From: Candidatus Gottesmanbacteria bacterium UBA6580
GTDB lineage: Bacteria; Patescibacteriota; Microgenomatia; UBA10105; UBA927
DNA: 64,000 bases
Assembly (NCBI GenBank): GCA_002433895.1
Contig: DJJA01000003.1
Span: forward strand, 9,950 to 73,949
Reading direction: 5' to 3'
Under the pieces are notes generated by a model. The model did no database searches. It was not told the origin of the DNA and worked only from the letters and a program-made list of their open reading frames with translations. Positions 1 through 37,293 of this stretch are shown here, in pieces. Made by a program: the position numbers and the translations under genes. The stretch's first letter is position 1. Each line of letters opens with the position of its first letter.

Positions 1-1873
1 GGAGCTCTCCGCCAGAAAAATGCTTCACATTACTGTCCATCCGGTCAGCGATATGGTCTAAATGCAAATCATGGAGCACCTGTGTCACTTTGTCGGTATC
101 CACCTGTTTTTTGGTCCACAACAGGAGATTTTCCCGTAACGTCATGTTCTCAAAATATTGAGGGTTTTGGTTGGCATACGCGAGTTGTGAGTAGATAGAA
201 TGCTCGCCATATTTTTTAATCGAATTGAGATCGCGTCCTCCATACGATACCTTTCCCTCTTCCGCACCAAAAAGCCCCAACATGTGACGCAAGAATGTGG
301 TTTTCCCGATCCCCGATTGCCCCTTAATCGTCACAAAAGACCCCTGCGGAATATCCATGCTTACATCATGAAGAATGTTTTTAAATCCCAGTTTATTTAT
401 CGATATATCAAAATTTGGCAAACTTTCTACCGGCACGCGCAGTTTCTCACGGGCGCCATCTGGTGTATCTACTTGATCGTAAGGACCCAATAGCTCATTC
501 ATCCTACGGATATCCTGAAGTGCCGGCTGTATTTTATCGGTATAGTCATGCACCATTTCCTCTATCATGGCGCCATTTATTCCCTCAAGTGCCATAGTAC
601 TTGTACCCGCAAGCATCACATTAAGTGACGGGTTCGTAAATTTTCCTGCCTTCGCATCTTTATTGGTGAGCGCATCCCAATTCATCAACGCTTCCCAACC
701 TGCCGCGACAATAGGGATACCATAGGTATAACCCATGCCGTAATATGCCTCTTTTTTGTCCCGGTCACTTCGTGAAGAGTCTGCGGCGACATCAACCTCA
801 TCGCTTTTTGACATATTACTCTGCAACTCTTCCATGGCATTCACCATGCTATCGGTCGTGCGCACCACTTCCAGGCTCTGTAACGATGACAAAACGCGGG
901 CATCGATAAGGTCCTTGCGTTTGAGATTTTCAGCCCGCTCTTTCAATATTTTCCGTGCAGTTTGCTCCCCGTGACGCGCGAGAAATGGAATACGGATTAA
1001 CCCCAAAATACCGGCAGGAGGCGCGATCAGGAATTCAGTCGTGGTAATAGCGCCCAGGGCGGCCACTTTTGGCAACATTCCCTTGTATGTTATCCGCATC
1101 AAATCCACCGTCGCCTGCTTACCCTTATCGACAATATTCATGATTTCCGATGCCGGCTTGTCATGGATGAATTCAAAATCGCGCATAAATACGGACTGCG
1201 CAACACGGGTGTTAATAGCAGAGCGGAGCTTCATGGTGCTTTCCTCGAATTGTTTATTAATTCTCCTTCCGTTCACGAGCGGTGGAATAAGCCCCAACAC
1301 ATAGACATACGGTAGTGTTTCTTTTGCGATTGCCATTGCCCGCTTGAGGCGGTCCCAGTTTCCTTTTGCTGCTGAAAATTGCACCGCCTCAGCCACAGCT
1401 TTTTCGATGTGTCCAGGATTGGAAGCATGTTGTATCCCGTAGATACTCAGCGTTTCCAAAACAGTATTCGTGCGGATTTTATCGGCTGCTTCATAAAATT
1501 CCGGCGCTATCGAAGAAAATTTGTACGTTTTTTCTATATCGGTGACTATGCTTTTGTATTCCGCCATATCCTTCTGCATGTCCGGCGAAAAAACAACTTC
1601 AGAGGCGCGCTTCCCCGCATTTCCCACCGCTTCTTTTACTTTCTGACTGAGTGATGTGGTTTCCTGTGGAGTAAGCGGAACCTGATGTTGGGCAAAGTCT
1701 TTGCTCACCTCGCCGACAAGGGCGTTTGCCCCCTCTCCGATAGCTTTCGGATCCTGCGCTTCTAATGCATGCAGTAATTTCGAGGAAGCTCCGGTATTTT
1801 TCGGAGGTGTGGAAGGACGCTCAGAAACACGGGCATCTTTATGATGCAACGGTTTCGGCGCTTGTTCACTCAT
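1..1873 (-). CDS. ABC transporter ATP-binding protein with ~520 aa non-canonical N-terminal domain (C-terminus beyond window edge)
   Basis: Uninterrupted minus-strand frame from the ATG at 1873 to the window edge; absent from the ORF track only because no stop lies inside the window. My translation gives MSEQAPKPLHHKD... with Walker A GQSGIGKTT near residue 540 and FSGGE signature just before the window edge. The N-terminal 500 aa has a few Gly-rich hydrophobic stretches but is not a canonical 6-TM domain. Confidence 0.7.
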   Translation of the reverse strand, partial: MSEQAPKPLHHKDARVSERPSTPPKNTGASSKLLHALEAQDPKAIGEGANALVGEVSKDFAQHQVPLTPQETTSLSQKVKEAVGNAGKRASEVVFSPDMQKDMAEYKSIVTDIEKTYKFSSIAPEFYEAADKIRTNTVLETLSIYGIQHASNPGHIEKAVAEAVQFSAAKGNWDRLKRAMAIAKETLPYVYVLGLIPPLVNGRRINKQFEESTMKLRSAINTRVAQSVFMRDFEFIHDKPASEIMNIVDKGKQATVDLMRITYKGMLPKVAALGAITTTEFLIAPPAGILGLIRIPFLARHGEQTARKILKERAENLKRKDLIDARVLSSLQSLEVVRTTDSMVNAMEELQSNMSKSDEVDVAADSSRSDRDKKEAYYGMGYTYGIPIVAAGWEALMNWDALTNKDAKAGKFTNPSLNVMLAGTSTMALEGINGAMIEEMVHDYTDKIQPALQDIRRMNELLGPYDQVDTPDGAREKLRVPVESLPNFDISINKLGFKNILHDVSMDIPQGSFVTIKGQSGIGKTTFLRHMLGLFGAEEGKVSYGGRDLNSIKKYGEHSIYSQLAYANQNPQYFENMTLRENLLLWTKKQVDTDKVTQVLHDLHLDHIADRMDSNVKHFSGGEL

Positions 1874-1879
1874 ACAACG

Positions 1880-1888
1880 ATTATAGCA
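1880..1888 (-). promoter_or_regulatory. Extended -10 element (TGnTATAAT) 6 nt upstream of the ABC gene ATG; possible leaderless transcript
   Basis: Minus-strand sequence tgcTATAATcgttgtATG; no convincing -35 element. Confidence 0.3.
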
Positions 1889-2053
1889 AACATACGACAA
1901 CGAAAGGAAAGCAGTGAAGGGAGCGTCGTTATTGGTTTTTATACTCGGAAATTACCCAGCGGAGCCCTAGATTAAACTCACCGGTTACGTTCTCCGGCGC
2001 TTTCACGGCGTTTGTAAAATACATCGCGAGGCAAAAAAGGAAGGCCTCAACCG

Positions 2054-2557
2054 TTATGCTGCGGCTGGCTTTGGCGCACGGAAGTTGGTCCACATGCTCC
2101 TGGCTTTTTCAGGAATACTCTTAATGAACGTGAGAGCCTGGGCGCCTTTTTCTTTCACTGCTCCTTTTGCGACTTCCAGTCCAAATGCACCCATTGTCCC
2201 CTGATCGGCAAGCCACTTTCCAATAGGTCCGCCTTTGGCAATAATAGTACGGAATTTCTCACTCCCGACAAGACCGCCGGCAAACCCAACAACTGCGGTC
2301 GCGGTAGCAAGTGCGCCAACTCGTTTTCCGACAGCAATCCTTGCGGATTTCGTGGCGTCAGATTCAATCTGAGACATCACCGCTTGTCGTTGTTCATCGG
2401 TTAAACCGTTATGCACATCCGCATATTTGGCAACCATTTCTTTATGATCCTGATACCATTTTTCTTTGGCGCCCGACACCGTAAACGCGCGGCGCAATCC
2501 TTCTTTTATTCCTTTTTTTGGTGGTTCCATTGACATTCCTATTTCTGCCATAGACAT
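2054..2557 (-). CDS. Hypothetical protein, cassette large member L1 (helical N-terminus, Gly/Ala-rich hydrophobic C-terminal half)
   Basis: 167 aa ORF. Shares architecture with the proteins at 2941..3438 and 3750..4280 (hydrophobic segment VGALATATAVVGFAGGLVG followed by a Trp-containing Gly-rich amphipathic segment). Confidence 0.5.
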   Translation of the reverse strand: MSMAEIGMSMEPPKKGIKEGLRRAFTVSGAKEKWYQDHKEMVAKYADVHNGLTDEQRQAVMSQIESDATKSARIAVGKRVGALATATAVVGFAGGLVGSEKFRTIIAKGGPIGKWLADQGTMGAFGLEVAKGAVKEKGAQALTFIKSIPEKARSMWTNFRAPKPAAA

Positions 2558-2588
2558 ATCCTTTCTTCTTTGGGCAAGATAATTTTAC

Positions 2589-2912
2589 TTATTTTACCTG
2601 ATCAATCCCCTCTTCTGAGAGTGCCTTATCGACTTCCGTCAGCACTTCATTCATCAGCGTGTCGATTTCCGTAAGCGCCTGGCCATCTTTAATCGTGTCA
2701 GTAATAAGCTGCGAATAGCTCTCCACCGTCACCCTACTTTTTGGATCTGCCGCCAAAAAATCAAGCTGGTCTTTGGGCATGTATTTCAGTAATACCGGCC
2801 ACACTGTTACCTGAAGCCCCTCAGAAATGGTGGTATAAAGCTCTGCCTTTTCTTCTTCAGAAAGCTTACTCTGCTCTATTCTTGTTACAATTGCTTTTAG
2901 TTTGTCTTCCAT
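2589..2912 (-). CDS. Hypothetical acidic helical protein, cassette small member S1
   Basis: 107 aa ORF. Clear paralog of 3435..3746 and 4277..4618 (IEQSKLSEEEKAELYTTISEGLQVTVWPVLLKYMP versus IEASSLSADEKAQLYAAISGGLQGSVWPVLIKLAP). Confidence 0.55.
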   Translation of the reverse strand: MEDKLKAIVTRIEQSKLSEEEKAELYTTISEGLQVTVWPVLLKYMPKDQLDFLAADPKSRVTVESYSQLITDTIKDGQALTEIDTLMNEVLTEVDKALSEEGIDQVK

Positions 2913-2940
2913 GCCGCCTCCTTTATGAGCGTTCCCCTAT

Positions 2941-3438
2941 TTAGGGAATAATTTTTATTTTAGACGGTAACCCTGGACCTTTAGCAAAAAAGTCACCGAT
3001 GTTTTTGGCGATGTCTGAAAGTTTATTTGGTACATCAATAAGAATTGTCTTGTGGGGATCAAACATCCATGTCCGAACTGCTTCAAGCCCTGTGCCAATT
3101 GCTACCGGTGCGGTTTTGGTCAAAAATGCCCACATAGCCGGCAATCCGCCAGTCGCAATACTCCACCCTGCCGCAAGTCCTGCGCCGGTGATGATCCAGT
3201 TACGGACAACCTTACGCATCGCGGTTTTATGAATTGCTTTTTCATTGAACGCTATCAGTTCTTCCCGTTGTGCGGGGGTAAAACTAGCATACAAATTGTT
3301 GTACTTTGTCACCTCTTTTGCAGTCGCCCCTTTGAGGGTATAGGTTTCTTTTAGAAACGTCGTAATCCGCTCAGCGACGCGCTTCACGGCTCCCGGCTCT
3401 TTATCCACATTCACTGGTGTTTCAGTTACTTCGGTCAT
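2941..3438 (-). CDS. Hypothetical protein, cassette large member L2
   Basis: 165 aa ORF; 4-nt start/stop overlap with the upstream S2 gene. Gly-rich hydrophobic region WIITGAGLAAGWSIATGGLPAMWAFL. Confidence 0.5.
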   Translation of the reverse strand: MTEVTETPVNVDKEPGAVKRVAERITTFLKETYTLKGATAKEVTKYNNLYASFTPAQREELIAFNEKAIHKTAMRKVVRNWIITGAGLAAGWSIATGGLPAMWAFLTKTAPVAIGTGLEAVRTWMFDPHKTILIDVPNKLSDIAKNIGDFFAKGPGLPSKIKIIP

Positions 3439-3746
3439 ATGTGCTCCTCCTTCAAGGCAGCATCGACTTCGTCCAATAATTTATTCATCGTTTCTTCTAT
3501 TTCCGCGTACGAGCTATCTGTATCAACAACTCCGGAAATAAGCGCATTGTACCGTTCCACTTTCTTCTTCTCATCAGTTTCTTTGAGAATTTCATCAATC
3601 TCATTGGGTGGAGCAAGTTTGATAAGTACCGGCCACACAGACCCCTGCAATCCTCCGGAAATTGCTGCATAAAGCTGCGCTTTCTCATCAGCAGACAGTG
3701 AAGATGCTTCTATGCGCGTGATGATATCATCGAGTCGCTGTTCCAT
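3435..3746 (-). CDS. Hypothetical acidic helical protein, cassette small member S2
   Basis: 103 aa ORF; paralog of S1 and S3. Confidence 0.55.
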   Translation of the reverse strand: MEQRLDDIITRIEASSLSADEKAQLYAAISGGLQGSVWPVLIKLAPPNEIDEILKETDEKKKVERYNALISGVVDTDSSYAEIEETMNKLLDEVDAALKEEHI

Positions 3747-3749
3747 AGC

Positions 3750-4280
3750 TTATACGGCAACAGGAGCTGGCTCTCCCGGTTTTACCCGTTCCCCGCCGTG
3801 CAGTATTTTATTGACGATCGGTGCCACCGCTTCTGAAGTGACGACTGCGCCGCCTACTTTTGCCATTTTTCCTACTGCCCACTCCACCGGTCGGTACCGC
3901 ATTGTTGCCCACATACCAACGCCTTTAGTAAGCAATGAGCCTCTCATTGCAAATGGTATAACAACGGCAGTCAGCGCTATATCGGCAAGACGCGCACCAA
4001 ACTGAGCTATTTGAGCTGCTTCGTATGCCGCTGGGCGCAAGTCTGCGAGCATCTTTTGGGAACCCTCGTATCCTTTATTCCCCATCCGGTCAATCATCTG
4101 CTCGTAAGCCTCCACAGTTTCTACCAACGGTGCTGCACGCCGTACTTTTTCTGGCACAAGCGGGGTTTTAACATTCTTTTCCCGCCCACCCTGGAACCGC
4201 CCACTCTGTTTCATCTCAAGATAGGCAATTGCCCTACTCCTCGGACTCATTGCTGCTTCACCCATAGATTGCTCACTCAT
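3750..4280 (-). CDS. Hypothetical protein, cassette large member L3
   Basis: 176 aa ORF; 4-nt overlap with S3. Hydrophobic LADIALTAVVIPFAMRGSLL followed by the Trp/Gly-rich segment GVGMWATMRYRPVEWAVGKMAKVGGAVV. Confidence 0.5.
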   Translation of the reverse strand: MSEQSMGEAAMSPRSRAIAYLEMKQSGRFQGGREKNVKTPLVPEKVRRAAPLVETVEAYEQMIDRMGNKGYEGSQKMLADLRPAAYEAAQIAQFGARLADIALTAVVIPFAMRGSLLTKGVGMWATMRYRPVEWAVGKMAKVGGAVVTSEAVAPIVNKILHGGERVKPGEPAPVAV

Positions 4281-4618
4281 GCTATCCCTCCTTTGGAAAG
4301 GGCAGTTTCGATATCATCTAATACTTCCTGCGTTGCTGTGTTGAGCTCCTCATATAGCTTAGGATCACTTAATGGTTTTTTCATGAGTTCGATATAAGCA
4401 TCTACGGTTGCCTTGGACGCATCAGCGGCCATAGCCTTCACTTCTTCACTGGGAGCATGCTGTAAAATGATGGGAAGCACGGACTCGTGGAGATATTCAC
4501 TTATCTTGGCATACATCGCTTCTTTGTCTTCGTCAGTCCAGCCGGACTTTTCAATTTTTACCACTATATCGGTGAGCCTGCTTTCAAAACTTTGATTTGT
4601 TGTATTCATACTAAACAT
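4277..4618 (-). CDS. Hypothetical acidic helical protein, cassette small member S3 (start uncertain; ORF-track TTG at 4633, ATG at 4618 or 4609)
   Basis: Paralog of S1/S2 (VVKIEKSGWTDEDKEAMYAKISEYLHESVLPIILQHAP). Confidence 0.5.
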   Translation of the reverse strand: MFSMNTTNQSFESRLTDIVVKIEKSGWTDEDKEAMYAKISEYLHESVLPIILQHAPSEEVKAMAADASKATVDAYIELMKKPLSDPKLYEELNTATQEVLDDIETALSKGGIA

Positions 4619-4680
4619 CACTGTAGCGAACAATGAGATAGATTGTCAACAAGCTTGAGGCAGCGCTTGTTTCTTTACCC

Positions 4681-4729: not shown

Positions 4730-6061
4730 TCACTTCATTGCTTTAAGTATCCGCCCGAGTGCCACGATAAATGCCGCAGTTCGCAAATCCGTTTTATGAG
4801 CAACAGATGCCTGCCATACCGCTTCGGCGGCTGCGGCCATCTTATGCGCAAGCTTTTTATTTACTTGGGCTTTTGTCCAGTGCTGCCCTTTCAAATTCTG
4901 CTCCCACTCAAATGCCGACACCGTCACTCCCCCGCTATTACTAAGGATATCCGGAATAACCGGGACACCCTTTTTGTACAGAATAACATCCGCCTCCGGT
5001 GTCGTCGGACCATTTGCCATTTCGAGCACGACCTTAGCTTTGATCTTACCGGCATTTTCCTGCGTTACCGCGTTTTCTAGTGCTGCCGGAACCAATATAT
5101 CGACCGGCAACTCCAGCAGTGCATCGTTGGTCACCTGCTTCCCTTTTTTCAAATCGCACACCGAACCGGAACAATAGCACCCGGCCAAATACCCGTTTTT
5201 CTTTTTACATTCAAGGGTAAGCGCCGGATTAATTCCGTCGGGAACATAAATACCACCCTTGCTATCCGAGACCGCCACCACGGTAATCCCCGCTTCATCC
5301 AAAAACTTCACGATGTTATACCCCACATTGCCAAAGCCTTGTACTGCCGCAGTAAGTTTTCCTTTGAGCCGTAGTTTTTTTAAGATTGCCTGCAGCACAA
5401 ATAATCCCCCCAACCCGGTGGCCTCTTCTCTCCCCTCACTTCCCCCGTCTTTGATTGCCTTTCCGGTAAACGTGCTTTTGAGCTTCATCTCATCGCGCTT
5501 CGTCAGTGTTTTACCGAATAGCTTTGCTTTTTTGCGCTGTGTTTTGAGAAACTCGTCGACCATCCACCCCATAATAATCCCGTTTGTGTTCACATCGGGT
5601 GCTGGTACATCAGTGTCGGGACCAATGATGTCCGCGATCGCTTCACCGTATCCACGGCTTAACCGCTCAAGCTCACCCACCGAAAGCATTTTCGGATCAA
5701 CGATAATACCGCCTTTTCCTCCGCCGAGCGGAAGATCAGCTACCGCACATTTCATCGCCATCCAAAACGACAGCGCCTTTACCTCATCCAAACTTACATT
5801 GTGGTGATACCGGATACCCCCTTTATATGGACCTCTACTGTTATTAAACTGCACCCGGTATCCTTGAAATATTTGCTGGGAACCGTCATCCATGATGACA
5901 GGAATGGTCACATTTACCACACGCTGTGGTTGCTTCAACCGGTCAATTTTTTGTTGTAATGCAGCTTTTTGCTTTCCCGTTAACTGCTTATTGTTCACGG
6001 TTACTTGTTCAGCTTTTTTAAGCTGACTCATTGCTGACAAAAAAGGGTTTATAGTAGACAT
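4730..6061 (-). CDS. gdhA: NAD(P)-specific glutamate dehydrogenase
   Basis: 443 aa. Glu/Leu/Phe/Val dehydrogenase motifs [15 protein letters not shown] and the GFGNVG Rossmann fold. Confidence 0.85.
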
Positions 6062-6103
6062 AATTCCTCCTATTATAAATAGTACTCAATACCTATAGTT
6101 TGA

Positions 6104-6802
6104 CTAATAAAATAGCTCTGATTTAATCTGCTCCTTGGGAACATTATGCGCTAATAACTGCTCCCTCACCTCTTCTATCATTCCTTTGTTCCCGCACAGA
6201 TAAAACTCACTTTGCTGCAGGTCTTTTTCCTGCGAAAAAACATGTTCTGTCACATGCCCCCGCAGACCTGTCCAGGCATCAGAAGGCTTCGACAGTATTT
6301 GGTGCCACGTAAACGCCGGATGACGGGATTGTAACTTGTCTAACTCGTCTTTCCAATAGATATCTTTTTCAAACCGTTGCCCCCAATACAGTTCTACATT
6401 CGCTCCCCCACCCCGATCGAAATAATCGATGATCATCCCTCGAAATGGTGCAATTCCGGTACCCGTTGCAATCATCACTTTTTTACGCGGTGAATCTGCA
6501 AACGATAACACACCCCCGGTCGGAGCGACGATAGTCGCCGTATCCCCGACTTTCAAACCCAACGTCCATTTGCTTCCCGGCCCCATAGGGCTCACATCGT
6601 GCACCATAAGCAACGACAGATTTTCAGACGGAGGGGATGCAATCGACATCGTTCGGTTCACCCCGGGAGCAATCATGAGCATCATGTTTTGTCCTGCACG
6701 AAAATCAATACTCGGGGGCAAAACGAGGGCAAAGGTTACGAAATATACTTTATCGGTCACCTGCTCTTTTGAGGTAACCTTAAGCGTGAACTTCTGTGCC
6801 AT
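6104..6802 (-). CDS. FAD/NAD(P)-binding oxidoreductase (ferredoxin-NADP reductase-like)
   Basis: 232 aa; R-x-Y-S-like FAD motif RTMSIAS, GTGIAPF and the C-terminal YLCGNKGM typical of the FNR family. Overlaps trxB by 23 nt. Confidence 0.65.
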   Translation of the reverse strand: MAQKFTLKVTSKEQVTDKVYFVTFALVLPPSIDFRAGQNMMLMIAPGVNRTMSIASPPSENLSLLMVHDVSPMGPGSKWTLGLKVGDTATIVAPTGGVLSFADSPRKKVMIATGTGIAPFRGMIIDYFDRGGGANVELYWGQRFEKDIYWKDELDKLQSRHPAFTWHQILSKPSDAWTGLRGHVTEHVFSQEKDLQQSEFYLCGNKGMIEEVREQLLAHNVPKEQIKSELFY

Positions 6803-7730
6803 GGGCTTCTAAATATTTTTCTGCGTCCATTGCTGCCATACACCCCTGTCCTGCGGCAACAATCGCCTGCCGGTACCGTGGATCTACACAATCCCCTGCT
6901 GCAAATATTCCCGGTACCGTTGTTTCTGTTTGTGCCGCAAGAGGTGATACCCCACGCTTTACCACCACATAGCCTTTTGGATCTAATTCAACCACACCCT
7001 GTAAAAATCCCGTGCTTGGCTTGTGCCCGATAGCCAAAAACACTCCTTGCGTCGGATAATCGGTAATCTCCCCTGTCTTTGCGTCCTTGAGCCGGATACC
7101 TGTTACCTCTGTATCGCCTAATATCTCTTCAACGATTTTATTCGTCAAAAAACTGATGCGGTCATCCTTTTTTGCCCGGTCAAGCATAATCGCTGATGCG
7201 CGGAACTCATCCCTCCGGTGAACAATAGTTACTTTCGGAGAGAATTTCGTGAGAAACGTCGCCTCCTCCATTGCGGTGTCCCCGCCACCGATTACCGTGA
7301 CAACTTTTCCCCGGAAGAAAAATCCATCACAGGTAGCACACCCCGACACGCCCTTACCTTTCAGCCGCTCTTCACTCGGTAACCCTAGATACATAGCAGA
7401 TGCGCCGGTGGCCACAATGACCGTTTTTGCCGTGTATTCATTGTTTTGTGTTGTAACGGTGAATACCGTGCCTTTGTTAATACCCGTCACGACCTCCTGC
7501 TTTATCTCCGCGCCAAAGCGCTCCACCTGCGTTTTCATATCAGTCACGAGCTGTGGCCCCATTATCCCTTTGGGAAATCCCGGGAAATTATCAACCTCTG
7601 TTGTCGTGGTAAGCTGTCCTCCCGGTTCTAATCCTGACAATACGAGAGTTTTAAGAAACGCACGGGAGGTATACAGTGCGGCCGTATAGCCCGCCGGCCC
7701 TGAACCGATGATGATGACATCGTACGTCAT
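6780..7730 (-). CDS. trxB: Thioredoxin-disulfide reductase
   Basis: 316 aa; N-terminal GSGPAG FAD motif, redox-active CATC, second GGGDTA dinucleotide motif. Confidence 0.9.
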   Translation of the reverse strand: MTYDVIIIGSGPAGYTAALYTSRAFLKTLVLSGLEPGGQLTTTTEVDNFPGFPKGIMGPQLVTDMKTQVERFGAEIKQEVVTGINKGTVFTVTTQNNEYTAKTVIVATGASAMYLGLPSEERLKGKGVSGCATCDGFFFRGKVVTVIGGGDTAMEEATFLTKFSPKVTIVHRRDEFRASAIMLDRAKKDDRISFLTNKIVEEILGDTEVTGIRLKDAKTGEITDYPTQGVFLAIGHKPSTGFLQGVVELDPKGYVVVKRGVSPLAAQTETTVPGIFAAGDCVDPRYRQAIVAAGQGCMAAMDAEKYLEAHGTEVHA

Positions 7731-7765
7731 ATTACTTTTTTAAAATACAACACGTGCTACCGCAA

Positions 7766-8074
7766 TTATTTATTCAACTCAGCAACCAAGGTGTCTTTAC
7801 TGGTAACCCCAATAAACTGTTTCGTTACTGCCCCTCGGTTAAACACCATAAGGGTAGGAATACTCATGATTCCGTACTTTTGTGCGTTGACCGGATTCTC
7901 ATCCACATTCAACTTGACGACCTTTGCCTTATCTCCTACTGCGGCGGCGACTTCCTCTACTATCGGCCCCTGCACCTGGCACGGACCGCACCAGACTGCC
8001 CAAAAATCAACGAGCACCGGCTTATCTGATTGCAATACTTCTGTATCAAATGTTTGATCGGTTACGTCTGCCAT
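7766..8074 (-). CDS. trxA: Thioredoxin
   Basis: 102 aa; WCGPC active site. Confidence 0.9.
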   Translation of the reverse strand: MADVTDQTFDTEVLQSDKPVLVDFWAVWCGPCQVQGPIVEEVAAAVGDKAKVVKLNVDENPVNAQKYGIMSIPTLMVFNRGAVTKQFIGVTSKDTLVAELNK

Positions 8075-8195
8075 ATTGCCTCCTTTGCAACACTACCCAA
8101 TATATTTTAGGATTTTCAGTATACCACTGGAGCGCGCTCTGTAAACCCCGTCTGTTTTAGACTGTCCGTACGCGCCACAACAAAGAGGTACCTGC

Positions 8196-8399
8196 TTATT
8201 CGCGGATACGGTACCCAGCGGCTATGACCGCTTCTTTTACGAGATCGTCACTATTTTTTTCATCCATCTCTACTTCCACTATCTGCTTTGCAAAACTACA
8301 CCGGCCGTTAATTCCCCGGTCTTCCAATTCTCCTTCGATGAGCATGGCGCAACTTGCGCAATGCATCCCGTCAATCTGATACGTTTTTGTTTTTTTCAT
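8196..8399 (-). CDS. copZ: Heavy-metal-associated (HMA) copper chaperone
   Basis: 67 aa; GMHCASCA MxCxxC motif. Confidence 0.8.
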   Translation of the reverse strand: MKKTKTYQIDGMHCASCAMLIEGELEDRGINGRCSFAKQIVEVEMDEKNSDDLVKEAVIAAGYRIRE

Positions 8400-8410
8400 A
8401 TACTGGTTGA

Positions 8411-9418
8411 TTATTTTACAATGAAAGTGCCACCATACATCCCCATACTACAACTAAACGGTAACTCTCCGCTGGTATCCGGAGCGGTAAAGCTCACCGT
8501 GGTTGTCTGTCCCACCGGCACCACCTCCTGTATTCCAAGCTGCGGGATGGTGAATGCCTGGATACACCCCTCCCCCGCGGTATTCGTTAGGGTAAGCGTA
8601 ACATCTTGCCCTTTCGGAATAACCGGGTTATCTATCCTGTAGCCATTGAGCCAAAATGTAATAACTGGCGTCGTCGTCGGTTCACCCGTGCTTTGCCCAT
8701 CAGGGCAAAATGTGATGGTGCAATACGCAGAGCGCGCGAGTGATTTCAACGTCACTGTAGACCCGTACAACGTGAGCGCTGCGTTGAAATTAATGAGTGC
8801 AAGCACCATCACGAGCGTTGCGGCGACAACACCGAACTTATCCTTCAGTGTCGCTTTAATAACGTCGATCGAAACCCCAAGAAGGAAAAATAACGGTGCG
8901 GTTCCCAACACAAACACGAAAAGCACCGCCATCCCCCACCATGGACTTCCGGTGCCAGCTGCCAACGCCATCATTGCCTGCGTTGTCCCGCAAGGAATAA
9001 AAACAGAAAGTAATCCGATTACAAATGGCGCAAATACTCCCCCCGCCTTTGCCCTACCTCTGATAAACTTGGTGAGAAACCGCGGCGGCTGGATGACAAA
9101 ATAACGGAATAATGGATGCACGTCGAGAAAGGAAAGCGCTGTACCAATCATAAAAAACGAAGCTAAACCGATACCGATAGCCTGTGCCCTCGGTGATAAT
9201 CCAACTTGTGACCCTACCCACCCCAGAAAGAACCCCAACACTGCATGAGAAATAAGCTTAGCAAGTAAAAATGACGCCACTCCCCACGCCCGTGACCCCC
9301 GGGGATGCTCTTCTTCTTCAGAAGAAAGTGCAGTCACGAGTAAGCCTCCCTGTACGGCCATACAGGTCAGGCCGCCCGCGATTAAACCGGTCGTAAATAT
9401 GATCCAAAGGTTAGGCAT
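8411..9418 (-). CDS. Membrane protein: DsbD/CcdA-like transmembrane domain fused to a C-terminal cupredoxin-like domain
   Basis: 335 aa; multiple TM helices with Cys in TM segments (GGLTCMAV, IPCGTTQ). C-terminal domain ends SCSMGMYGGTFIV, resembling the cupredoxin_1-type C-terminus also seen in 9834..10187. Confidence 0.55.
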   Translation of the reverse strand: MPNLWIIFTTGLIAGGLTCMAVQGGLLVTALSSEEEEHPRGSRAWGVASFLLAKLISHAVLGFFLGWVGSQVGLSPRAQAIGIGLASFFMIGTALSFLDVHPLFRYFVIQPPRFLTKFIRGRAKAGGVFAPFVIGLLSVFIPCGTTQAMMALAAGTGSPWWGMAVLFVFVLGTAPLFFLLGVSIDVIKATLKDKFGVVAATLVMVLALINFNAALTLYGSTVTLKSLARSAYCTITFCPDGQSTGEPTTTPVITFWLNGYRIDNPVIPKGQDVTLTLTNTAGEGCIQAFTIPQLGIQEVVPVGQTTTVSFTAPDTSGELPFSCSMGMYGGTFIVK

Positions 9419-9445
9419 ATAAGTAAGGTAGTATAACCCGGCTAG

Positions 9446-9473
9446 TTGACATTCTGCAAAATGATGGTACGAT
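9446..9473 (+). promoter_or_regulatory. Sigma70-like promoter for csoR-cupredoxin-copA (-35 TTGACA, 16-nt spacer, -10 TACGAT)
   Basis: TTGACAttctgcaaaatgatggTACGAT directly upstream of the operator and csoR. Confidence 0.45.
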
Positions 9474-9476
9474 CAT

Positions 9477-9498
9477 TATATCCCTATGGGGGGGATAA
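9477..9498 (+). promoter_or_regulatory. CsoR-type operator (GC-tract pseudo-palindrome TATCCCTATGGGGGGGATA)
   Basis: Resembles the known B. subtilis CsoR copZA operator type (TACCCnnnnGGGGTA class). Lies between the promoter and the csoR start. Confidence 0.5.
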
Positions 9499-9556
9499 AC
9501 GTCAATACAGCAGTTTGGTTCACCCTAATTTGAACCATAAAATATAAGGAGTATAT

Positions 9557-9841
9557 ATGCCAAAAGGAATACCGCGAAATCAGACCGTACAACAAAAAAT
9601 CCTGCACCGCATGAAGATCGCGCGCGGACACCTCAACCGCGTCATCCGCATGATGGAACATGGCGATTATTGCGTCAACATAATCCATCAATCCCTTGCG
9701 GTACAGGCGGCTTTACGGAGCACCGACCAGGAGATTCTCAGGAACCATCTGGTTACCTGTGTCGCGGAAGAGATAAAAAAAGGTAATGCTGATGAGGTCA
9801 TCGAGGAAGTTATGAAAGTCATGGAGAAACAACATGGATAA
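9557..9841 (+). CDS. csoR: CsoR/RcnR-family copper-sensing transcriptional repressor
   Basis: 94 aa; DUF156-like with RGHLNRV, the metal ligands C..H..C (HGDYCVNIIHQ) and the LVTCV cysteine. Confidence 0.8.
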   Translation: MPKGIPRNQTVQQKILHRMKIARGHLNRVIRMMEHGDYCVNIIHQSLAVQAALRSTDQEILRNHLVTCVAEEIKKGNADEVIEEVMKVMEKQHG

Positions 9842-10187
9842 ACTAATAGTCACGCTCCTTGGCGCTGCTTCAATCGGCTTTATCTATTGGTTTTTCTTTG
9901 GGAAAAAAGAAGAGGCTGCGCAACCTAAAAATGTGTGGAGCATTCTCGTGGAAGGCGGATACAAACCATCCACGGTCACCATCTCCCACGGGGCACCGGC
10001 AACAATTACCTTCACCCGCAAGGATCCAAACAGCTGCCTGGAAGAAATTGTGCTTCCGGATTTTAAAATTAAAAAATTCCTTCCGTTGCATAAAGCAATA
10101 ACAGTGACTATATCCCCCGTCAAAAAGGGAACCTATGACATCCACTGCGGCATGAATATGTATCACGGAAAAATTATCGTTGTATGA
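9834..10187 (+). CDS. Cupredoxin-like domain protein with N-terminal TM anchor
   Basis: 117 aa; ends [19 protein letters not shown] (cupredoxin_1-type C-terminus). Overlaps csoR and copA starts. Confidence 0.6.
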
Positions 10188-12442
10188 CAAAAACATCATT
10201 CCCCATTATCGGTATGCATTGTGCAAGCTGCGCCCGGCTTATCGAACGGCAGCTCAAAAAAACACCGGGAGTATCTGATGCTGCCGTAAACTACGGTTCA
10301 GAACAGGCAAGCGTTGAATGTGATCCATCGGTCGCAACGCCGGAAGCACTGGCGGGTGCGGTCGCCGCCGCGGGTTACAAAGCGGTTGTGGGTGACGCGC
10401 CCCGCAAAACCGCATCGGGGTCTGTTATGACGCCGGACGATATAAAGGAAGAAGCAAAACGCAACGAACTCGCCGAGCTCAAAACGAAGGTTATCGTGTC
10501 GGGTGTATTAAGTGTTGTAATAATGCTCGGAAGTTTTCCTGAGTGGTTTACCGGAATATTCTCGGGCATAAGCTCCATTTACGCATTGTTGGCTGCTCCC
10601 GCTACACTCCTCCTCCTCACCATTCCCGTACAATTCTGGGCGGGCAAATCGTTTTATCAGGCAACGTGGTCGGGACTCAAAAACAGAACGGCAAGCATGG
10701 ATACGCTTATTGCGATAGGAACCACTGCCGCATTTGGCTACTCACTTACCACTCTTTTTCCTGAGCCTCTGGAAGCGCTTGGCGTTCCCATGACCATGTA
10801 CTATGACACCGCTGCCGTTATTATCACGCTCATTCTGCTCGGGCGTTATCTGGAGGCAAAGGCAAAGGCGCACACATCAGACGCCATCAAAAAACTCCTG
10901 CATCTTCAGGCAAAGACAGCCAGAGTTGTTCGCGGCGGCAAAGAAATTGATATCCCTATAGATCAGGTAAAAAAAGGAGATACTATAAGAGTGCGTCCGG
11001 GTGAAAAAATTCCGGTTGACGGCACCATTTCCGAAGGGTCAAGTTCTGTTGATGAGTCCATGGTCACCGGCGAATCCATTCCGGTTGATAAAAAACGTGG
11101 AGACACCGTAATCGGAGCGACGATTAACCGGACCGGCACATTCCTCTTTACTGCCACCAAAGTCGGCAATGAGACCCTACTGTCTCAAATTGTGACCATG
11201 GTATCGGAAGCACAAAGTTCACGGGCACCCATCCAACGGCTTGCTGATGTTGTTTCGGGTTATTTTGTTCCGGTGGTACTCATGCTTGCTGTTGCGACGT
11301 TTGTTGTCTGGTATGACGTGGGTCTCCCCACCCAGGCATTTGTCAACCTTATCGCGGTACTTATTATCGCCTGTCCGTGCGCCTTGGGACTCGCCACCCC
11401 AACCGCTATCATGGTCGGCACCGGCAGAGGGGCGGAGCGCGGTGTGCTTATAAAGGATGCCGAGGCACTCGAGACTGCCCACAAAATCAAAGTTGCGGTA
11501 TTTGATAAAACCGGCACGCTCACCCGCGGTAAACCAACGGTCACGGATATTATTCCGGTCGCAAAAATGAATGCTCATAAAGTATTGTCGCTTGCCGCTT
11601 CACTCGAAATGGGATCTGAGCATTCACTGGCAGAAGCAATCGTTTCTGCGGCTACGGAAAAAAACCTCCCATTAACCAAAGTAGGCTCTTTCCGGGCAAT
11701 AGCAGGACACGGCGTGACCGGGAGCTTGGCCGGTAAACTGCTCGCTTTGGGAAACCGGCTACTCATGGCGAAGCAATCAGTTGTCTATAGCGTTCACGAA
11801 AAGAAAATCGCAGCACTGGAAACACAAGGAAAAACGGTCATGCTTCTTGCGTCAGGAAAACAACTTCTTGGTCTTATTGCCATTGCCGATACGCTGAAAA
11901 ACGATGCAAAAGACATGGTGGCTGCACTCAAAAAAATGCATATAACGGTCTGGATGATCACTGGTGACAACCCGCGGACTGCACACGCTATCGCGAATCA
12001 AGCAGGCATCAATCATGTGCTCGCGGGCGTCCTTCCACAGGAAAAAGCCAATAAAATCAGGGAACTCAAAGCCAACAACGCCGTCGTTGCGTTTGCCGGA
12101 GATGGCATTAACGACGCACCCGCACTCGCCGGGGCAGATGTGGGTATCGCCATGGGAACAGGCACTGATGTCGCCATAGAATCTGCCGGCATTACGCTGC
12201 TTAACAAGGACTTACGAAGCGTCGTCACCGCCATCAAACTTTCTAAGGCAACACTATCAATTATCAAACAAAACTTGTTCTGGGCATTCGCCTACAATGT
12301 GATACTCATCCCCGTCGCGGCAGGAGTCCTCTACCCCATCACCGGCTGGCTACTTAATCCTGCGCTTGCGGCATTTGCCATGGCAGCAAGCAGTATTTCC
12401 GTTGTCGGAAATTCGTTAAGACTAAAAAGAGTAAATATATAA
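10184..12442 (+). CDS. copA: Copper-translocating P1B-type ATPase
   Basis: 752 aa; N-terminal [16 protein letters not shown] motif, phosphorylation site DKTGTLT, hinge GDGINDAP. Confidence 0.9.
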
Positions 12443-13122: not shown

Positions 13123-13200
13123 TTAGTATACACCCATGGGTCACAATTGGTATGTAATATACCTCACATGATATTTGTAGAAAATCTGTATACTAAATAC

Positions 13201-13647
13201 ATGGGAAATTTATCTGCAAACACAACATCCCGCAATCTCAACCGGGTTATCTTTTTTTTGTCATTGCTGGGCATAGTCATGGCAATTTATGTCACGCAAA
13301 GCTTTATCCGTCAGACCGGCATTGTCTGCGTCTCGAGCGGATGTGAACTGGTGCGGAAACACCCGGCAAGCTACTTGTTCGGCACTATCCCCGTTCCGGC
13401 AGTGGGACTCGTCGGTTATTCCCTCCTCGCCTTATTCTCATTTTTACGGACGACAAAACATAAGCCGTGGACACTGCGGGGCATGCTCGGCATATCCACA
13501 TTTGGTGTACTCTTTGTTTCGTGGTTTACCTACATTGAACTAACCGTCATAAAGGGAGTATGCACCTGGTGTGCGATCTCTGCGGTAAACATGTTCGTCA
13601 TTTTTACCTTGCTTCTTAAAAGTTACTCATTAGAAAAAAAGAAATAA
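13201..13647 (+). CDS. Vitamin K epoxide reductase (VKOR)-family membrane oxidoreductase
   Basis: ORF 13147..13647, with a probable start at MGNLS. Four TM segments with a Cys pair in the loop region (C..SSGC) and a CTWC (CxxC) in the last TM, as in VKOR/DsbB-analog proteins. Confidence 0.6.
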   Translation: MGNLSANTTSRNLNRVIFFLSLLGIVMAIYVTQSFIRQTGIVCVSSGCELVRKHPASYLFGTIPVPAVGLVGYSLLALFSFLRTTKHKPWTLRGMLGISTFGVLFVSWFTYIELTVIKGVCTWCAISAVNMFVIFTLLLKSYSLEKKK

Positions 13648-25019: not shown

Positions 25020-25907
25020 CTATTCCTGTATATTAACCGCATCATCCGGCAGAAGCAATACCCTCATTGTTTTTGGGATCTCCTGCGCGAGGTCAGAGGC
25101 ATTAAAAAACGGCCCGACAGAGCGATACAACGCGTCACCCGCAGCTTTGTTAATAAAACTACCGGCAATAGTTGCGAGCATGGGGTCATTCGTACAGGCT
25201 AATGCCGCAATAAGACCGGCGAGCACATCACCGGTTCCTCCTTTTGTCATTCCTTCGTTGCCTCCGGCAATCAGCCGTGTTTCGCCAGGGGCACATACCC
25301 GTTCATCGCACTTCCCGCCTGAGCAGGCAATGTCGGTTTGTCCTTTTAGGAGCACGATACAATGATACGTCTTTGCAAATAGCTTCACTTTGTCTTCGTC
25401 GGTGTGAGCCTGGCTAAATTCGGGGTGCCCGGCACGTGCCCTATCCCATAACCTCGTAAATTCCTGATGGTGTGGTGTTAAAATAGCATTGTTGGGGATA
25501 TCGGATAACTCCATCATCTGCAGCGCGCCAGCATCGATCACCCATTGCTTCGTAGGGAACGAAACTAACAGGTTGTGGGTAAGCATACGGGTTTCTTCAT
25601 CGCGCACCATACCCGGCCCGATTAACACACAGTCATCCTCCTCTATGTAGGCGCCGACATCTTCCCGCGCTATCACTATCCCATCATGGAATTCTTTTTT
25701 TATTTCTTTTACGATATCGTTATTTTCAGGCACCGAGGAATAGTGAACGAGGTCCACAATACGTGACGCCACCTCCAGCGCCCATATACTGGCCGCATGA
25801 AACAAGTGGCTTCCTCCGACGATAAGCAGCCTGCCGTTTTGCCCTTTATGTGAATTTGGTTCCGCCAAACGGAGCATTTGGATGTCTTGGATGGTTACTT
25901 CCTTCAT
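25020..25907 (-). CDS. nnrD: ADP-dependent NAD(P)H-hydrate dehydratase (YjeF C-terminal domain)
   Basis: ORF 25020..25937; SHKGQNGRLLIVGGS and GGNEGMTKGGTGDVLAG signature regions. Confidence 0.7.
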   Translation of the reverse strand: MKEVTIQDIQMLRLAEPNSHKGQNGRLLIVGGSHLFHAASIWALEVASRIVDLVHYSSVPENNDIVKEIKKEFHDGIVIAREDVGAYIEEDDCVLIGPGMVRDEETRMLTHNLLVSFPTKQWVIDAGALQMMELSDIPNNAILTPHHQEFTRLWDRARAGHPEFSQAHTDEDKVKLFAKTYHCIVLLKGQTDIACSGGKCDERVCAPGETRLIAGGNEGMTKGGTGDVLAGLIAALACTNDPMLATIAGSFINKAAGDALYRSVGPFFNASDLAQEIPKTMRVLLLPDDAVNIQE

Positions 25908-25914
25908 ACCCGTA

Positions 25915-26973
25915 TTATAAACGAAGCACGGTAGCATTATTGGTGATACGTGTAGGCACGCTCGACATATCAGCGCTCGTGATAATCGTTTGTTGCTTAT
26001 CTGTCACCTCACCGACAAGAATCCTATGAGCCTCATCAAGCTCTGAAAAGATATCATCCAAAAGCAGCAGTGGCCGCTCCCCCGTTTCCTGCTCTATGTA
26101 TAACAGCTCTGCAAGCTTAAGCCAAAGCACCGCGAGGCGCTGCTCGCCACGGCTACCGAACTTATTAAGATCTCGAAACGTATGTGACCCCGAAGAAGCC
26201 CCATGCTCCTGGCTCGACAGGGTAAAATCATCCCTATGCGGGCCGACCAATGTTGATTTTGCCGCCACCTCTTCATCCTTATACTGCAATATCCGCGCCT
26301 CCGAAATAATACTTTTGTCATACGTTATGGTGTAGCGGTGATCGGAAAGGACGGTGGCATTCACAAATTCGATATACGCCGCCCTTTTTTCAGTAATATA
26401 CCCTCCGGCTTTAATCAGCAGCTGATCCCAAAATAACAGCTGGCTCCGGGTGGCAGCACCCTCTTTAATAAGGTCAAGAAGTTTATTTCGTTGCCGTAGC
26501 CCACGCTCATAGGATATGAGGTTCCTTCGGTACTCACGGTCGGTCTGTACCAATACCATATCCAGATATTTCCTCCGGATACTGGGACTGTCGGTCACGA
26601 TTTCAAGATCTTCCGGCCAAAAAAGGACAACCCGCACATGCCCCATGAAATCGATGAAACGCCGCGGAACACCGTTTACCATATACTTCTTGAGTGGCGA
26701 CCGCTGGCCGGAAACTTCACCAGGCGTAAGTATTACTTCCAACCTGGTACTACCGGCTTCCGCTTCAATGCGCGTAATTTCCTCACCCCAGTAAATAACG
26801 TCACGGTCCTGTCCCGCGCGGAAACTTTTTCCGGTCGCGAGCATTACGATGGCCTCCAATACGTTTGTTTTTCCTGCGGCATTGGGCCCTACTATACAGG
26901 TTGCGCCGTCTGAAAAATGCCAGGATTTATTTTTGTAACTGCGGAAATTTGAAAGCACCAACGAAGTCAGCAT
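25915..26973 (-). CDS. recF: DNA replication and repair protein RecF
   Basis: ORF 25915..27015; Walker A GPNAAGKTN, SMC-like signature, LLLDDIFSELD Walker B. Confidence 0.85.
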   Translation of the reverse strand: MLTSLVLSNFRSYKNKSWHFSDGATCIVGPNAAGKTNVLEAIVMLATGKSFRAGQDRDVIYWGEEITRIEAEAGSTRLEVILTPGEVSGQRSPLKKYMVNGVPRRFIDFMGHVRVVLFWPEDLEIVTDSPSIRRKYLDMVLVQTDREYRRNLISYERGLRQRNKLLDLIKEGAATRSQLLFWDQLLIKAGGYITEKRAAYIEFVNATVLSDHRYTITYDKSIISEARILQYKDEEVAAKSTLVGPHRDDFTLSSQEHGASSGSHTFRDLNKFGSRGEQRLAVLWLKLAELLYIEQETGERPLLLLDDIFSELDEAHRILVGEVTDKQQTIITSADMSSVPTRITNNATVLRL

Positions 26974-35870: not shown

Positions 35871-35922
35871 CTAAGTATAGCACAACCCGTCAATTTCCAA
35901 TATGTTACTGTCCTGATACAAT

Positions 35923-36218: not shown

Positions 36219-36247
36219 TTGCGGGCACCGTCTGAAGCTGGTATAAT
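36219..36247 (+). promoter_or_regulatory. Sigma70-like promoter upstream of the tRNA (-35 TTGCGG, 17-nt spacer, -10 TATAAT)
   Basis: TTGCGGgcaccgtctgaagctggTATAAT, 24 nt before the tRNA 5' end. Confidence 0.45.
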
Positions 36248-37154: not shown

Positions 37155-37293
37155 AAAAAAATTCACCTCCTCAGGTATCCCAATCTATCACGTACCTATT
37201 AAACAAATGGCAACAGTATACGAACAGAAAGGTTAGATAGAGTTATTATACCATTTGACCCGCCGGAATGGTTCTTTTACACTAACATCACCT

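What the first reader, a model, noticed from the sequence alone, without database searches (positions are those of the whole stretch)
1..1873. ABC ATPase preceded by a ~520 aa non-canonical N-terminal domain, with an extended -10 element abutting its start codon
The NBD (Walker A GQSGIGKTT, signature FSGGE) begins about residue 530. The preceding region is largely hydrophilic and helical with only about three Gly-rich hydrophobic stretches (e.g. LPKVAALGAITTTEFLIAPPAGILGLI), not the six-helix TMD of ABC exporters. I saw no C39 peptidase motif (which would carry a Cys-containing active-site signature such as QxxxxDCGxA). One hydrophobic Gly-rich stretch resembles those of the adjacent cassette L proteins, hinting at a shared membrane-interaction module. 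A TGnTATAAT element 6 nt upstream of the ATG suggests a leaderless mRNA. The C-terminal end lies outside the window.
Basis: seen in the sequence. Interest (0 to 1): 0.6.

Follow-up and report, generated by a model that had tools for sequence, protein, structure and literature searches.

The report
Divergent ABC exporter, barely hydrophobic membrane domain
This is the first 624 residues of an ABC ATPase whose long N-terminal part is a very diverged copy of the ordinary exporter membrane domain that has lost most of its hydrophobicity, and which in Gottesmanbacteria always sits with a paralogue inside arrays of paired small genes of unknown function.

Summary
The sequence facts hold. A minus-strand ORF runs from the ATG at 1873-1871 off the window start (624 aa seen, about 722 in full). 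It has Walker A GQSGIGKTT and signature FSGGE, no cysteine (so no C39 peptidase), and TGCTATAAT six nt before the ATG.

It is still abnormal. Its predicted membrane segments carry charges, and hydropathy is far below MsbA and same-genome membrane proteins.

The family is tiny (81 representatives in 1.84 billion proteins) and found only in Gottesmanbacteria/Patescibacteria assemblies. The gene is followed by one or two paralogues and embedded in S/L gene-pair arrays in 12 of 14 related loci (the other two carry fragments).

The -10 element abutting the start codon is conserved in orthologues, and is common in this genome.

No similarity to the L proteins was found.

My best reading is a heterodimeric ABC motor that exports or delivers the L proteins. 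Whether it is still membrane-embedded is open.

The parts
2..1873 (-). Partial CDS of ABC1: aa 1-624 of about 722. The C-terminal ~98 aa, with Walker B, D-loop and H-loop, lie beyond the window start.
   Evidence: Translation has no stop. The 95%-identical full-length homologue P0001 is 722 aa. Pfam ABC_tran at 501-623, E 5.6e-19.
1880..1888 (-). Extended -10 element TGCTATAAT. It is followed by 6 nt (CGTTGT) and then the ATG at 1873-1871, with no Shine-Dalgarno sequence. This is the putative promoter of a leaderless mRNA.
   Evidence: The same arrangement is found in orthologues: TGCTATACT/TGGTATACT/TATACT/TGGTAGAGT + 6 nt + ATG. 22 of 32 ABC-family genes in related loci have TAnnnT 5-8 nt before the start.
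1514..1873 (-). N-terminal extension, aa 1 to about 120. It is hydrophilic and variable in sequence, and predicted as four helices (24-39, 42-62, 69-91, 97-116). It has no counterpart in canonical half-transporters. It is missing from the middle paralogue (P0023/P0024 type) in some genomes.
   Evidence: AF2 models, alignment A1, no Pfam hit, no similarity to S or L families.
488..1504 (-). Divergent type IV ABC exporter membrane-domain fold, aa ~124-462. Predicted helices are 124-168, 172-226, 241-283, 285-336, 340-397 and 415-462. Hydrophobicity is abnormally low.
1169..1189 (-). FMRDFEF, aa 229-235. This is the near-invariant motif at the position of coupling helix 1 (intracellular loop 1).
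   Evidence: Invariant columns M230, R231, D232, E234, F235 in A1. Short helix 228-234 between the long helices in the AF2 model.
995..1075 (-). Gly-rich hydrophobic stretch LPKVAALGAITTTEFLIAPPAGILGLI, aa 267-293. It forms the tip of the predicted TM3-TM4 hairpin and is the most hydrophobic part of the protein.
   Evidence: KD19 maximum 1.79 at aa 281-299; helix break at 284; aligned to ABCB6 TM3-TM4.
2..406 (-). Nucleotide-binding domain, aa ~490-624 visible. Walker A is at nt 296-322, Q-loop Gln569 at nt 167-169, and signature FSGGE at nt 5-19.
2054..4633 (-). Three upstream S/L gene pairs that belong to the same conserved locus. S genes: 4277-4633, 3435-3746, 2589-2912. L genes: 3750-4280, 2941-3438, 2054-2557. 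The S stop overlaps the L start by 4 nt in two of the pairs.
   Evidence: ORFs; orthologous pairs in L001, L008, L010, L011, L013 and L017; no Pfam or NCBIfam family.

Best explanation
The feature is the 5' 86% of a gene for a half-size ABC protein with type IV ('exporter') architecture. It has a ~120-aa helical N-terminal extension, a six-long-helix membrane-domain fold with two coupling loops, and a nucleotide-binding domain.

Shown:
- The fold assignment.
- The intact ATPase motifs.
- The rarity of the family and its restriction to Gottesmanbacteria.
- The adjacent paralogue(s).
- The conserved position inside arrays of translationally coupled S (about 85-120 aa, helical) and L (about 165-440 aa, with a Gly-rich hydrophobic patch) genes.
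- The conserved -10 element 6 nt before the start codon.

Inferred:
- ABC1 pairs with the downstream paralogue ABC2 into a heterodimer with two competent ATP sites.
- The pair is the ATP-driven motor of a lineage-specific system that exports the L proteins or delivers them to the membrane.
- The S proteins act as cytosolic partners of the L proteins.
- The N-terminal extension is the docking site.
- The gene is transcribed from its own promoter as a leaderless mRNA.

Rough confidence by step: type IV ABC half-transporter homologue 0.9; heterodimer with ABC2 0.7; leaderless transcript 0.65; functional link to the S/L proteins 0.5; export as the direction of action 0.35.
For: Fold:
- The full-length AF2 model hits TmrAB, CmABCB1, Atm1, CydDC and PCAT1 over about 600 columns, E about 1e-15.

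Sequence:
- PF00664 in 7 of 17 members, and above the gathering score in distant members.
- ABCB6 TM3-TM4 aligned in register.
- The NBD is closest to the ABCB, CydC/CydD and bacteriocin exporter families.
- Walker A, Q-loop, signature, Walker B-Glu and H-loop are present in both ABC1 and ABC2.

Partner:
- ABC2 starts 24 nt after ABC1 in L001, is 37-48% identical over the full length, and is present in every long locus.

Context:
- The order S/L pairs - ABC1 - (ABC1b) - ABC2 - L/S pairs is seen in 12 of 14 loci, down to 28-37% ABC identity.
- The number of pairs varies even between 95%-identical relatives.
- No L protein has an N-terminal signal-peptide-like segment. Each has one marginally hydrophobic Gly-rich segment.

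Promoter.
Against: - No substrate link is shown. It rests on gene order alone.
- The S and L proteins match no known family, so nothing marks them as secreted.
- The predicted membrane-spanning segments are too polar for a normal integral transporter. They carry 1.5-5.7 charges per 20-residue segment. The lowest approximate insertion energies (summed Hessa-scale values) are +5.8 to +9.5 kcal/mol, against -0.1 to +4.2 for MsbA and -1.7 to +4 for same-genome membrane proteins. ABC2 has no KD19 window above 1.05.
- The AF2 models are only moderately confident (pLDDT 69-74) and could be pulled toward a familiar fold.
- The window's own protein does not itself hit PF00664.
- No membrane-fusion or outer-channel partner is present, although none is expected in a cell with a single membrane.
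Confidence: 0.5

Rival explanations
1. The ABC1/ABC2 pair keeps the exporter fold but is no longer a lipid-embedded transporter. It would be a soluble or peripheral ATP-driven clamp, or sit inside a protein shell. It would bind S/L complexes in its central cavity, then release, assemble or insert the L proteins. At most the tips of the TM3-4 and TM5-6 hairpins would touch the membrane.
For: - In all 81 family representatives only 0-3 segments reach KD19 1.6.
- The predicted outer-half segments of TM1 and TM2 average 5.7 and 4.6 charged residues.
- ABC2 has no window above 1.05.
- ABC1's best approximate insertion energies (Hessa-scale sums) lie between those of membrane helices and the soluble GDH control. 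MsbA shows six clear peaks.
- Conservation is concentrated in the cytoplasmic loops and the TM6-NBD linker, not in the putative membrane parts.
Against: - No soluble protein with a type IV TMD fold is known to me, and a paper search found none.
- Some distant relatives, such as P0101 and P0115, have more hydrophobic helices, so membrane residence is ancestral.
- Hydropathy windows are crude. No topology predictor, model coordinates or multimer model were available.
- TM3-6 keep Gly/Ala/Leu-rich stretches that could still span a thin bilayer within a dimer.
Confidence: 0.2
2. It is an ordinary small-molecule, lipid or drug exporter of the ABCB/CydDC type. It would merely sit next to the S/L genes, with a membrane domain that has drifted in a fast-evolving reduced genome.
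For: - The structural neighbours are multidrug, heme, siderophore and lipid transporters.
- The best NCBIfam NBD hits are CydD and CydC.
- JGI annotates relatives as 'multidrug' or 'cytochrome bd biosynthesis' ABC proteins.
Against: - Synteny with the S/L arrays is kept down to about 28-37% identity, while the flanking gene content changes.
- The family is extremely rare and lineage-restricted, which is unlike a housekeeping exporter.
- Other membrane proteins of the same genome are normally hydrophobic, so genome-wide drift does not explain the polar helices.
- The conserved N-terminal extension has no role in this picture.
Confidence: 0.15
3. The locus is a toxin or bacteriocin export system. 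The L proteins would be glycine-zipper membrane-damaging toxins aimed at host or competitor cells. The S proteins would be immunity proteins or chaperones. ABC1/ABC2 would be the dedicated exporter, working like the Cdz or PCAT systems. This is a specific version of the best explanation.
For: - The L proteins carry Gly-rich hydrophobic segments such as VGALATATAVVGFAGGLVG and WIITGAGLAAGWSIATGGL.
- The pairs are translationally coupled, variable in number and fast-evolving. Only 2 homologues of L2 and 9 of S2 were found among 5.8 billion proteins. This is typical of polymorphic toxin/immunity cassettes (my own knowledge).
- Peptide and protein exporters PCAT1, ComA, HlyB, PrtD and McjD are among the structural matches.
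Against: - There is no C39 peptidase domain and no cysteine.
- No double-glycine leader or RTX repeats were recognised in the L proteins.
- No toxin or immunity family was hit.
- The gene order is S-L upstream but L-S downstream.
- The same orthologous pairs are retained across genera. That fits structural components better than diversifying toxins.
Confidence: 0.15
4. One reading: the ~520-aa N-terminus is a new, non-TMD domain with a few membrane-interacting Gly-rich segments shared with the L proteins.
For: - The window's protein has no Pfam hit upstream of the NBD.
- Hydropathy is weak.
Against: - PF00664 is hit in relatives.
- There is no sequence or profile similarity to the L or S families.
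Confidence: 0.03

Closest known systems
Heterodimeric type IV ABC exporters (BmrCD, EfrCD, TmrAB, TM287/288, Rv1273c/72c)
   Same: - Half-transporter layout with TMD then NBD.
- Two adjacent paralogous genes.
- Coupling-loop motifs and the TM6-NBD linker sit in the canonical places.
   Different: - Both ATP sites look consensus here, whereas many of these heterodimers have one degenerate site.
- The membrane helices are polar.
- There is an extra ~120-aa N-terminal helical extension.
- Sequence identity in the TMD is only about 6-10%.
- The genomic context is S/L arrays rather than drug-resistance regulators.
Protein and peptide exporting ABC transporters (PCAT1/ComA with C39 peptidase; HlyB/PrtD of type I secretion)
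   Same: - Type IV fold plus an N-terminal accessory domain, encoded next to the presumed protein substrates.
- They appear among the structural hits.
- NCBIfam bacteriocin_ABC matches the NBD and linker, E 9e-17.
   Different: - There is no C39 or C39-like domain and no cysteine.
- No HlyD-type adaptor or outer-membrane factor is present in any locus (precomputed Pfam columns).
- The candidate substrates are 165-440 aa proteins, each paired with a small partner, rather than leader-peptide bacteriocins or RTX proteins.
ABC exporters with extra N-terminal domains (TAP and ABCB6 TMD0; IrtA siderophore-interaction domain)
   Same: An additional N-terminal module precedes a type IV core. ABCB6 is the best sequence-profile hit and the top Foldseek hit for the N-terminal region.
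   Different: The extension here is a soluble four-helix segment. It is neither a membrane TMD0 nor an FAD-binding domain, and it matches no family.
Cdz glycine-zipper bacteriocin system of Caulobacter; PE/PPE pairs of mycobacterial ESX systems (analogies recalled from my own knowledge, not tested here)
   Same: Small co-encoded protein pairs with Gly-rich hydrophobic segments (Cdz), or a ~100-aa helical partner plus a larger partner (PE/PPE), encoded beside a dedicated ATPase-driven exporter.
   Different: No sequence similarity was detected to any known family. ESX systems use FtsK-type ATPases, not ABC proteins. Cdz uses a C39-type ABC protein with an adaptor.

Membership tests
ABC ATPase superfamily (PF00005) | Walker A, Q-loop and signature motif; Walker B with catalytic Glu; H-loop | tested here: met
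   PF00005 E 5.6e-19. GQSGIGKTT, AYANQ and FSGGE are in the window. Walker B LFLDEPT and H-loop VTHD lie outside the window but are intact in the 95%-identical P0001 and in ABC2.
Type IV ABC exporter fold (ABC_membrane PF00664 + NBD) | Six long helices per half-transporter, with two short coupling helices between TM2/3 and TM4/5 | tested here: met
Type IV ABC exporter fold (ABC_membrane PF00664 + NBD) | Sequence match to the PF00664 profile | tested here: inconclusive
   The window's protein and P0001 give no hit. 7 of 17 family N-terminal regions hit, best E 3.3e-5. Distant relatives reached by the family HMM score 29.1-33 bits against a cutoff of 28.
Type IV ABC exporter fold (ABC_membrane PF00664 + NBD) | Six hydrophobic membrane-spanning segments | tested here: not met
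   Only one KD19 window reaches 1.6 in ABC1 and none in ABC2, and 0-3 across the family. MsbA has five windows at 1.84 or above and a sixth at 1.43. Predicted outer-half segments carry 1.5-5.7 charges.
Type IV ABC exporter fold (ABC_membrane PF00664 + NBD) | Integral membrane localisation and transport activity | not testable with these tools
   Needs fractionation, a structure or a transport assay.
Peptidase-containing ABC transporters (PCAT, C39) | N-terminal C39 papain-like domain with catalytic Cys and His | tested here: not met
   No Peptidase_C39 hit. There are zero cysteines in the fragment and in 25 of 27 relatives' N-terminal regions.
Type I secretion system | ABC protein encoded with a membrane-fusion protein (HlyD family) and an outer-membrane factor | tested here: not met
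   No HlyD, MFP or OMF family appears among the called genes of five long loci.
Leaderless mRNA gene | -10 promoter element placed so that transcription starts at or next to the start codon, with no Shine-Dalgarno sequence | tested here: met
   TGCTATAAT + 6 nt + ATG. This is conserved in orthologues. The arrangement is enriched genome-wide, 7 against 1.8 expected. Neighbouring S/L genes use AAGGAGG instead.
Leaderless mRNA gene | Mapped 5' end at the start codon | not testable with these tools
   Needs dRNA-seq, 5'-RACE or metatranscriptome read starts.
Soluble ABC proteins (ABCF/ABCE type) | Two tandem NBDs and no TMD-like domain | tested here: not met
   There is a single NBD preceded by a TMD-fold domain.

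The most novel reading that the evidence does not exclude
A clade of proteins with the ABC exporter fold has shed its hydrophobic belt. It would work as a non-integral (soluble, peripheral or protein-encased) ATP-driven machine that handles the co-encoded S/L protein pairs. Together they would form a previously undescribed secretion or membrane-delivery apparatus specific to Gottesmanbacteria.
Probability: 0.2. Interest if true: 0.85.

Novelty: new variant of a known kind. Interest (0 to 1): 0.58.

Why it matters
Patescibacteria are thought to live attached to other microbes, but how they interact with them is largely unknown. This is a conserved locus of roughly 14 kb made entirely of unannotated genes, built around two ABC ATPases. 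It is a concrete candidate for a lineage-specific protein export or delivery system.

Separately, a type IV exporter fold whose 'membrane' helices are charged challenges the assumption that this fold is always lipid-embedded. If the pair proves not to be integral to the membrane, that would be a new use of one of the best-studied transporter architectures.

The conserved promoter-at-the-start-codon arrangement also gives a clean comparative case for leaderless expression in this phylum.

Tried and rejected
- Hypothesis of shortened (half-spanning) TM hairpins: rejected. Helix lengths in the models (43-58 residues) and the PF00664 alignment spans (for example profile positions 16-270 over 261 residues in P0096) are canonical. 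What has changed is the composition of the helices.
- S-like or L-like module inside ABC1 (N-terminal extension or TMD): rejected. BLASTP and hhalign against 12 S/L family alignments gave nothing.
- hmmsearch of the full-length profile against PDB matched only the NBD. The N-terminal-only profile gave just weak ABCB6 hits, E 0.19.
- hhalign of the family TMD against the single MsbA sequence gave no signal. A single-sequence template is too weak for this.
- Pfam and NCBIfam on S and L proteins gave no family.
- Database searches for S2 and L2 returned only 9 and 2 homologues, too few to model.
- Looking for a canonical ABC exporter in the window as a same-genome control found none. P-type ATPase, DsbD_2, FtsH, GDH and E. 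coli MsbA were used as controls instead.
- Literature searches on Gottesmanbacteria ABC proteins, leaderless Patescibacteria genes, and soluble or non-hydrophobic ABC exporter TMDs found nothing describing this family.
- Rfam and tRNA scans found nothing in or near 1-1873.
- The promoter/terminator scan found no canonical -35/-10 pair at the ABC start and no terminator between L1 and ABC1.
Full report
OBSERVATION

The feature is on the minus strand. An ORF starts at the ATG at 1873-1871 and runs off base 1, giving 624 codons with no stop.
- Walker A GQSGIGKTT is at aa 518-526 and the signature FSGGE is at aa 619-623.
- The Gly-rich stretch LPKVAALGAITTTEFLIAPPAGILGLI is at aa 267-293.
- The upstream sequence reads TGCTATAAT-CGTTGT-ATG, with no Shine-Dalgarno sequence.
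- Pfam recognises only ABC_tran, at aa 501-623. The NBD therefore begins near aa 490-500, not 530.
- The fragment contains no cysteine, which rules out a C39 peptidase.
- The closest relative, P0001, is 95% identical and 722 aa long, so about 98 residues (Walker B to the C-terminus) lie outside the window.

WHAT THE N-TERMINAL REGION IS

A word-indexed search of 5.8 billion proteins returned only 28 relatives of 642-768 aa (plus one 444-aa partial). None had a precomputed PF00664 hit.

In their alignment, the conserved blocks (INxRxAxSxFMRDFEFIHDK..EI.NI.DKGK, RKDxIDxR..SLQSLEVVK, KIQPALQDIKRMEELLGPYD) sit where canonical exporters have intracellular loop 1, intracellular loop 2 and the TM6-NBD linker.

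Structure prediction supports this.
- An AlphaFold2 model of P0001 (pLDDT 69) gave six long helices followed by the NBD. Foldseek matched full-length type IV exporters (CmABCB1, TmrAB, Atm1/Atm3, CydDC, PCAT1, MsbA) over about 600 columns, E about 1e-15.
- To remove the NBD's contribution I modelled residues 1-486 alone (pLDDT 74). All top 50 Foldseek hits were type IV ABC transporters, with 340-400 aligned columns.

Sequence evidence agrees.
- PF00664 is hit by 7 of 17 family N-terminal regions, best E 3.3e-5.
- The N-terminal profile's only PDB hits are ABCB6 TM3-TM4, aligned in register, E 0.19.
- Distant relatives found by an exhaustive HMM search score above Pfam's gathering threshold: P0066 29.6 bits, P0088 33 bits, P0096 29.1 bits covering profile positions 16-270.

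The region is therefore a diverged six-helix exporter membrane domain preceded by a ~120-aa helical extension. It is not a new domain.

WHAT IS STILL ODD

The helices have canonical lengths but not canonical composition.
- ABC1 has one 19-residue Kyte-Doolittle window at or above 1.6 (1.79). The partner ABC2 has none above 1.05. Across all 81 family representatives the count is 0-3.
- E. coli MsbA shows six peaks of 1.43-2.69. The P-type ATPase, DsbD_2 and FtsH from the same window show peaks of 1.6-2.6.
- I summed approximate per-residue insertion energies using Hessa 2005 scale values recalled from memory, ignoring position. The best ABC1 segments come to +5.8 to +9.5 kcal/mol. Real membrane helices here give -1.7 to about +4, and the soluble GDH control gives +8.8 or more.
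- Using the model's hairpin turns, the six 20-residue stretches that should cross the outer half of the bilayer average 1.5-5.7 charged residues across the family.

Whether this pair is still an integral membrane protein cannot be settled with these tools.

FAMILY AND CONTEXT

- The N-terminal HMM found only 81 representatives at E ≤ 0.001 among 1.84 billion proteins.
- A scan of 185,579 species genomes found 11 loci. All are Gottesmanbacteria or Patescibacteria metagenome-assembled genomes, and four of them are titled 'uncultured Gammaproteobacteria'. The best match was UBA5942 at 92%.
- In 12 of 14 loci examined the gene order is the same: GDH, then S/L pairs, then ABC1, sometimes a third ABC paralogue lacking the N-terminal extension, then ABC2, then L/S pairs. 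L014 and L019 carry only fragments of this order.
- ABC2 is a full-length paralogue, 37-48% identical, with consensus ATPase motifs.
- S and L genes are translationally coupled: 4-nt overlaps at 3435-3438 and 4277-4280.
- S and L proteins fall into several families with only partial profile links between them. S_b, S_c and S_d link at 82-88% hhalign probability; L_f and L_g at 89%; L_f and L_h only at 55%.
- S and L proteins match nothing in Pfam or NCBIfam and have very few homologues in the databases.
- The number of pairs varies even between close relatives. L001 has an extra 250+94 aa pair just upstream of ABC1 that the window lacks.

PROMOTER

- The -10 + 6 nt + ATG arrangement recurs at ABC1 in orthologues of 37-95% identity (TGCTATACT, TGGTATACT, TATACT, TGGTAGAGT).
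- A TACAAT + 7 nt + ATG arrangement precedes ABC2.
- 22 of 32 family genes have TAnnnT 5-8 nt before the start codon.
- Between the window and L001, upstream similarity is limited to the last ~24 nt.
- The pattern TAYAMT-N6-ATG occurs 7 times in the window against 1.8 expected, with 0 of 100 shuffles reaching 7. At least five of the seven hits are at plausible gene starts.
- Other genes in the window carry a strong AAGGAGG.

A leaderless start is therefore well supported comparatively. It is a habit of this genome rather than a peculiarity of this gene, and it has not been verified experimentally.

MECHANISM

Best reading: ABC1 and ABC2 form a heterodimeric type IV ABC motor with two active sites. 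It serves the co-encoded S/L proteins, most likely exporting or membrane-delivering the L proteins, which have no signal peptide and a single Gly-rich hydrophobic segment. The S proteins would be cytosolic partners and the N-terminal extension would be a docking module. Only the fold, the motifs, the synteny and the promoter conservation are shown. The pairing, the substrates and the direction of action are inferred.

Rivals:
- A non-integral exporter-fold machine (the most novel reading).
- An unrelated small-molecule exporter.
- A toxin/immunity export system.

VERDICT

This is a real and rare gene, and a new variant of a known kind. The 'non-canonical domain' turns out to be a type IV exporter membrane domain. 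Its loss of hydrophobicity and its fixed place in an uncharacterised multi-gene locus make it moderately to highly interesting.

Noticed in passing
window 2054-4633 (-): Three S/L gene pairs lie here: S of 103-118 aa, acidic and helical, and L of 165-176 aa with a Gly-rich hydrophobic patch. Two pairs have 4-nt stop/start overlaps. They match no known family. Orthologous pairs, and further L/S pairs downstream of ABC2, occur in most Gottesmanbacteria loci examined.
   Followed up: partly
window 1874-2053 versus L001:8837-10000: Close relatives (L001, L010, L011) carry an extra L (234-253 aa) + S (93-94 aa) pair between the last L gene and ABC1. The window lacks it. Only the last ~24 nt before the ATG, including the -10 element, are shared.
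   Followed up: partly
L011:12191-14122, L013:12173-14152, L018:3062-5005: Some genomes have three tandem ABC paralogues. The middle one (643-659 aa, P0023/P0024 type) lacks the N-terminal extension.
   Followed up: no
whole window, e.g. 52373-52387 (-), 35917-35931 (+), 25905-25919 (-), 13189-13203 (+): Genes split into two classes: those with a strong AAGGAGG Shine-Dalgarno sequence, and those with a TATAAT/TACAAT/TATACT element 5-8 nt before the start codon. This suggests widespread leaderless transcription in this genome.
   Followed up: partly
window 4607-4649 (-): The first S gene was listed with a TTG start at 4633. It more likely starts at the ATG at 4609 (110 aa, as called in L001). 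A TTGACA-18-TACAGT promoter-like site lies at 4649-4620.
   Followed up: no
L011, L012, L014, L016 (GTDB records): Four records that carry this Gottesmanbacteria-type locus are titled 'uncultured Gammaproteobacteria bacterium'. These titles are probably wrong taxonomic labels on the assemblies.
   Followed up: no
window 4730-12442: A block of GDH, NAD-binding oxidoreductase, thioredoxin reductase, thioredoxin, DsbD_2-cupredoxin, CsoR-like repressor and copper P-type ATPase genes lies next to the locus. It is syntenic with L001, L004 and L008, which makes it a useful anchor for finding the locus.
   Followed up: partly
window 36272-36344 and 37911-37985 (+): Two tRNA-Met (CAT) genes lie 1.6 kb apart. 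TGGTATAAT elements sit nearby at 36239-36247 (+) and 37245-37253 (-).
   Followed up: no
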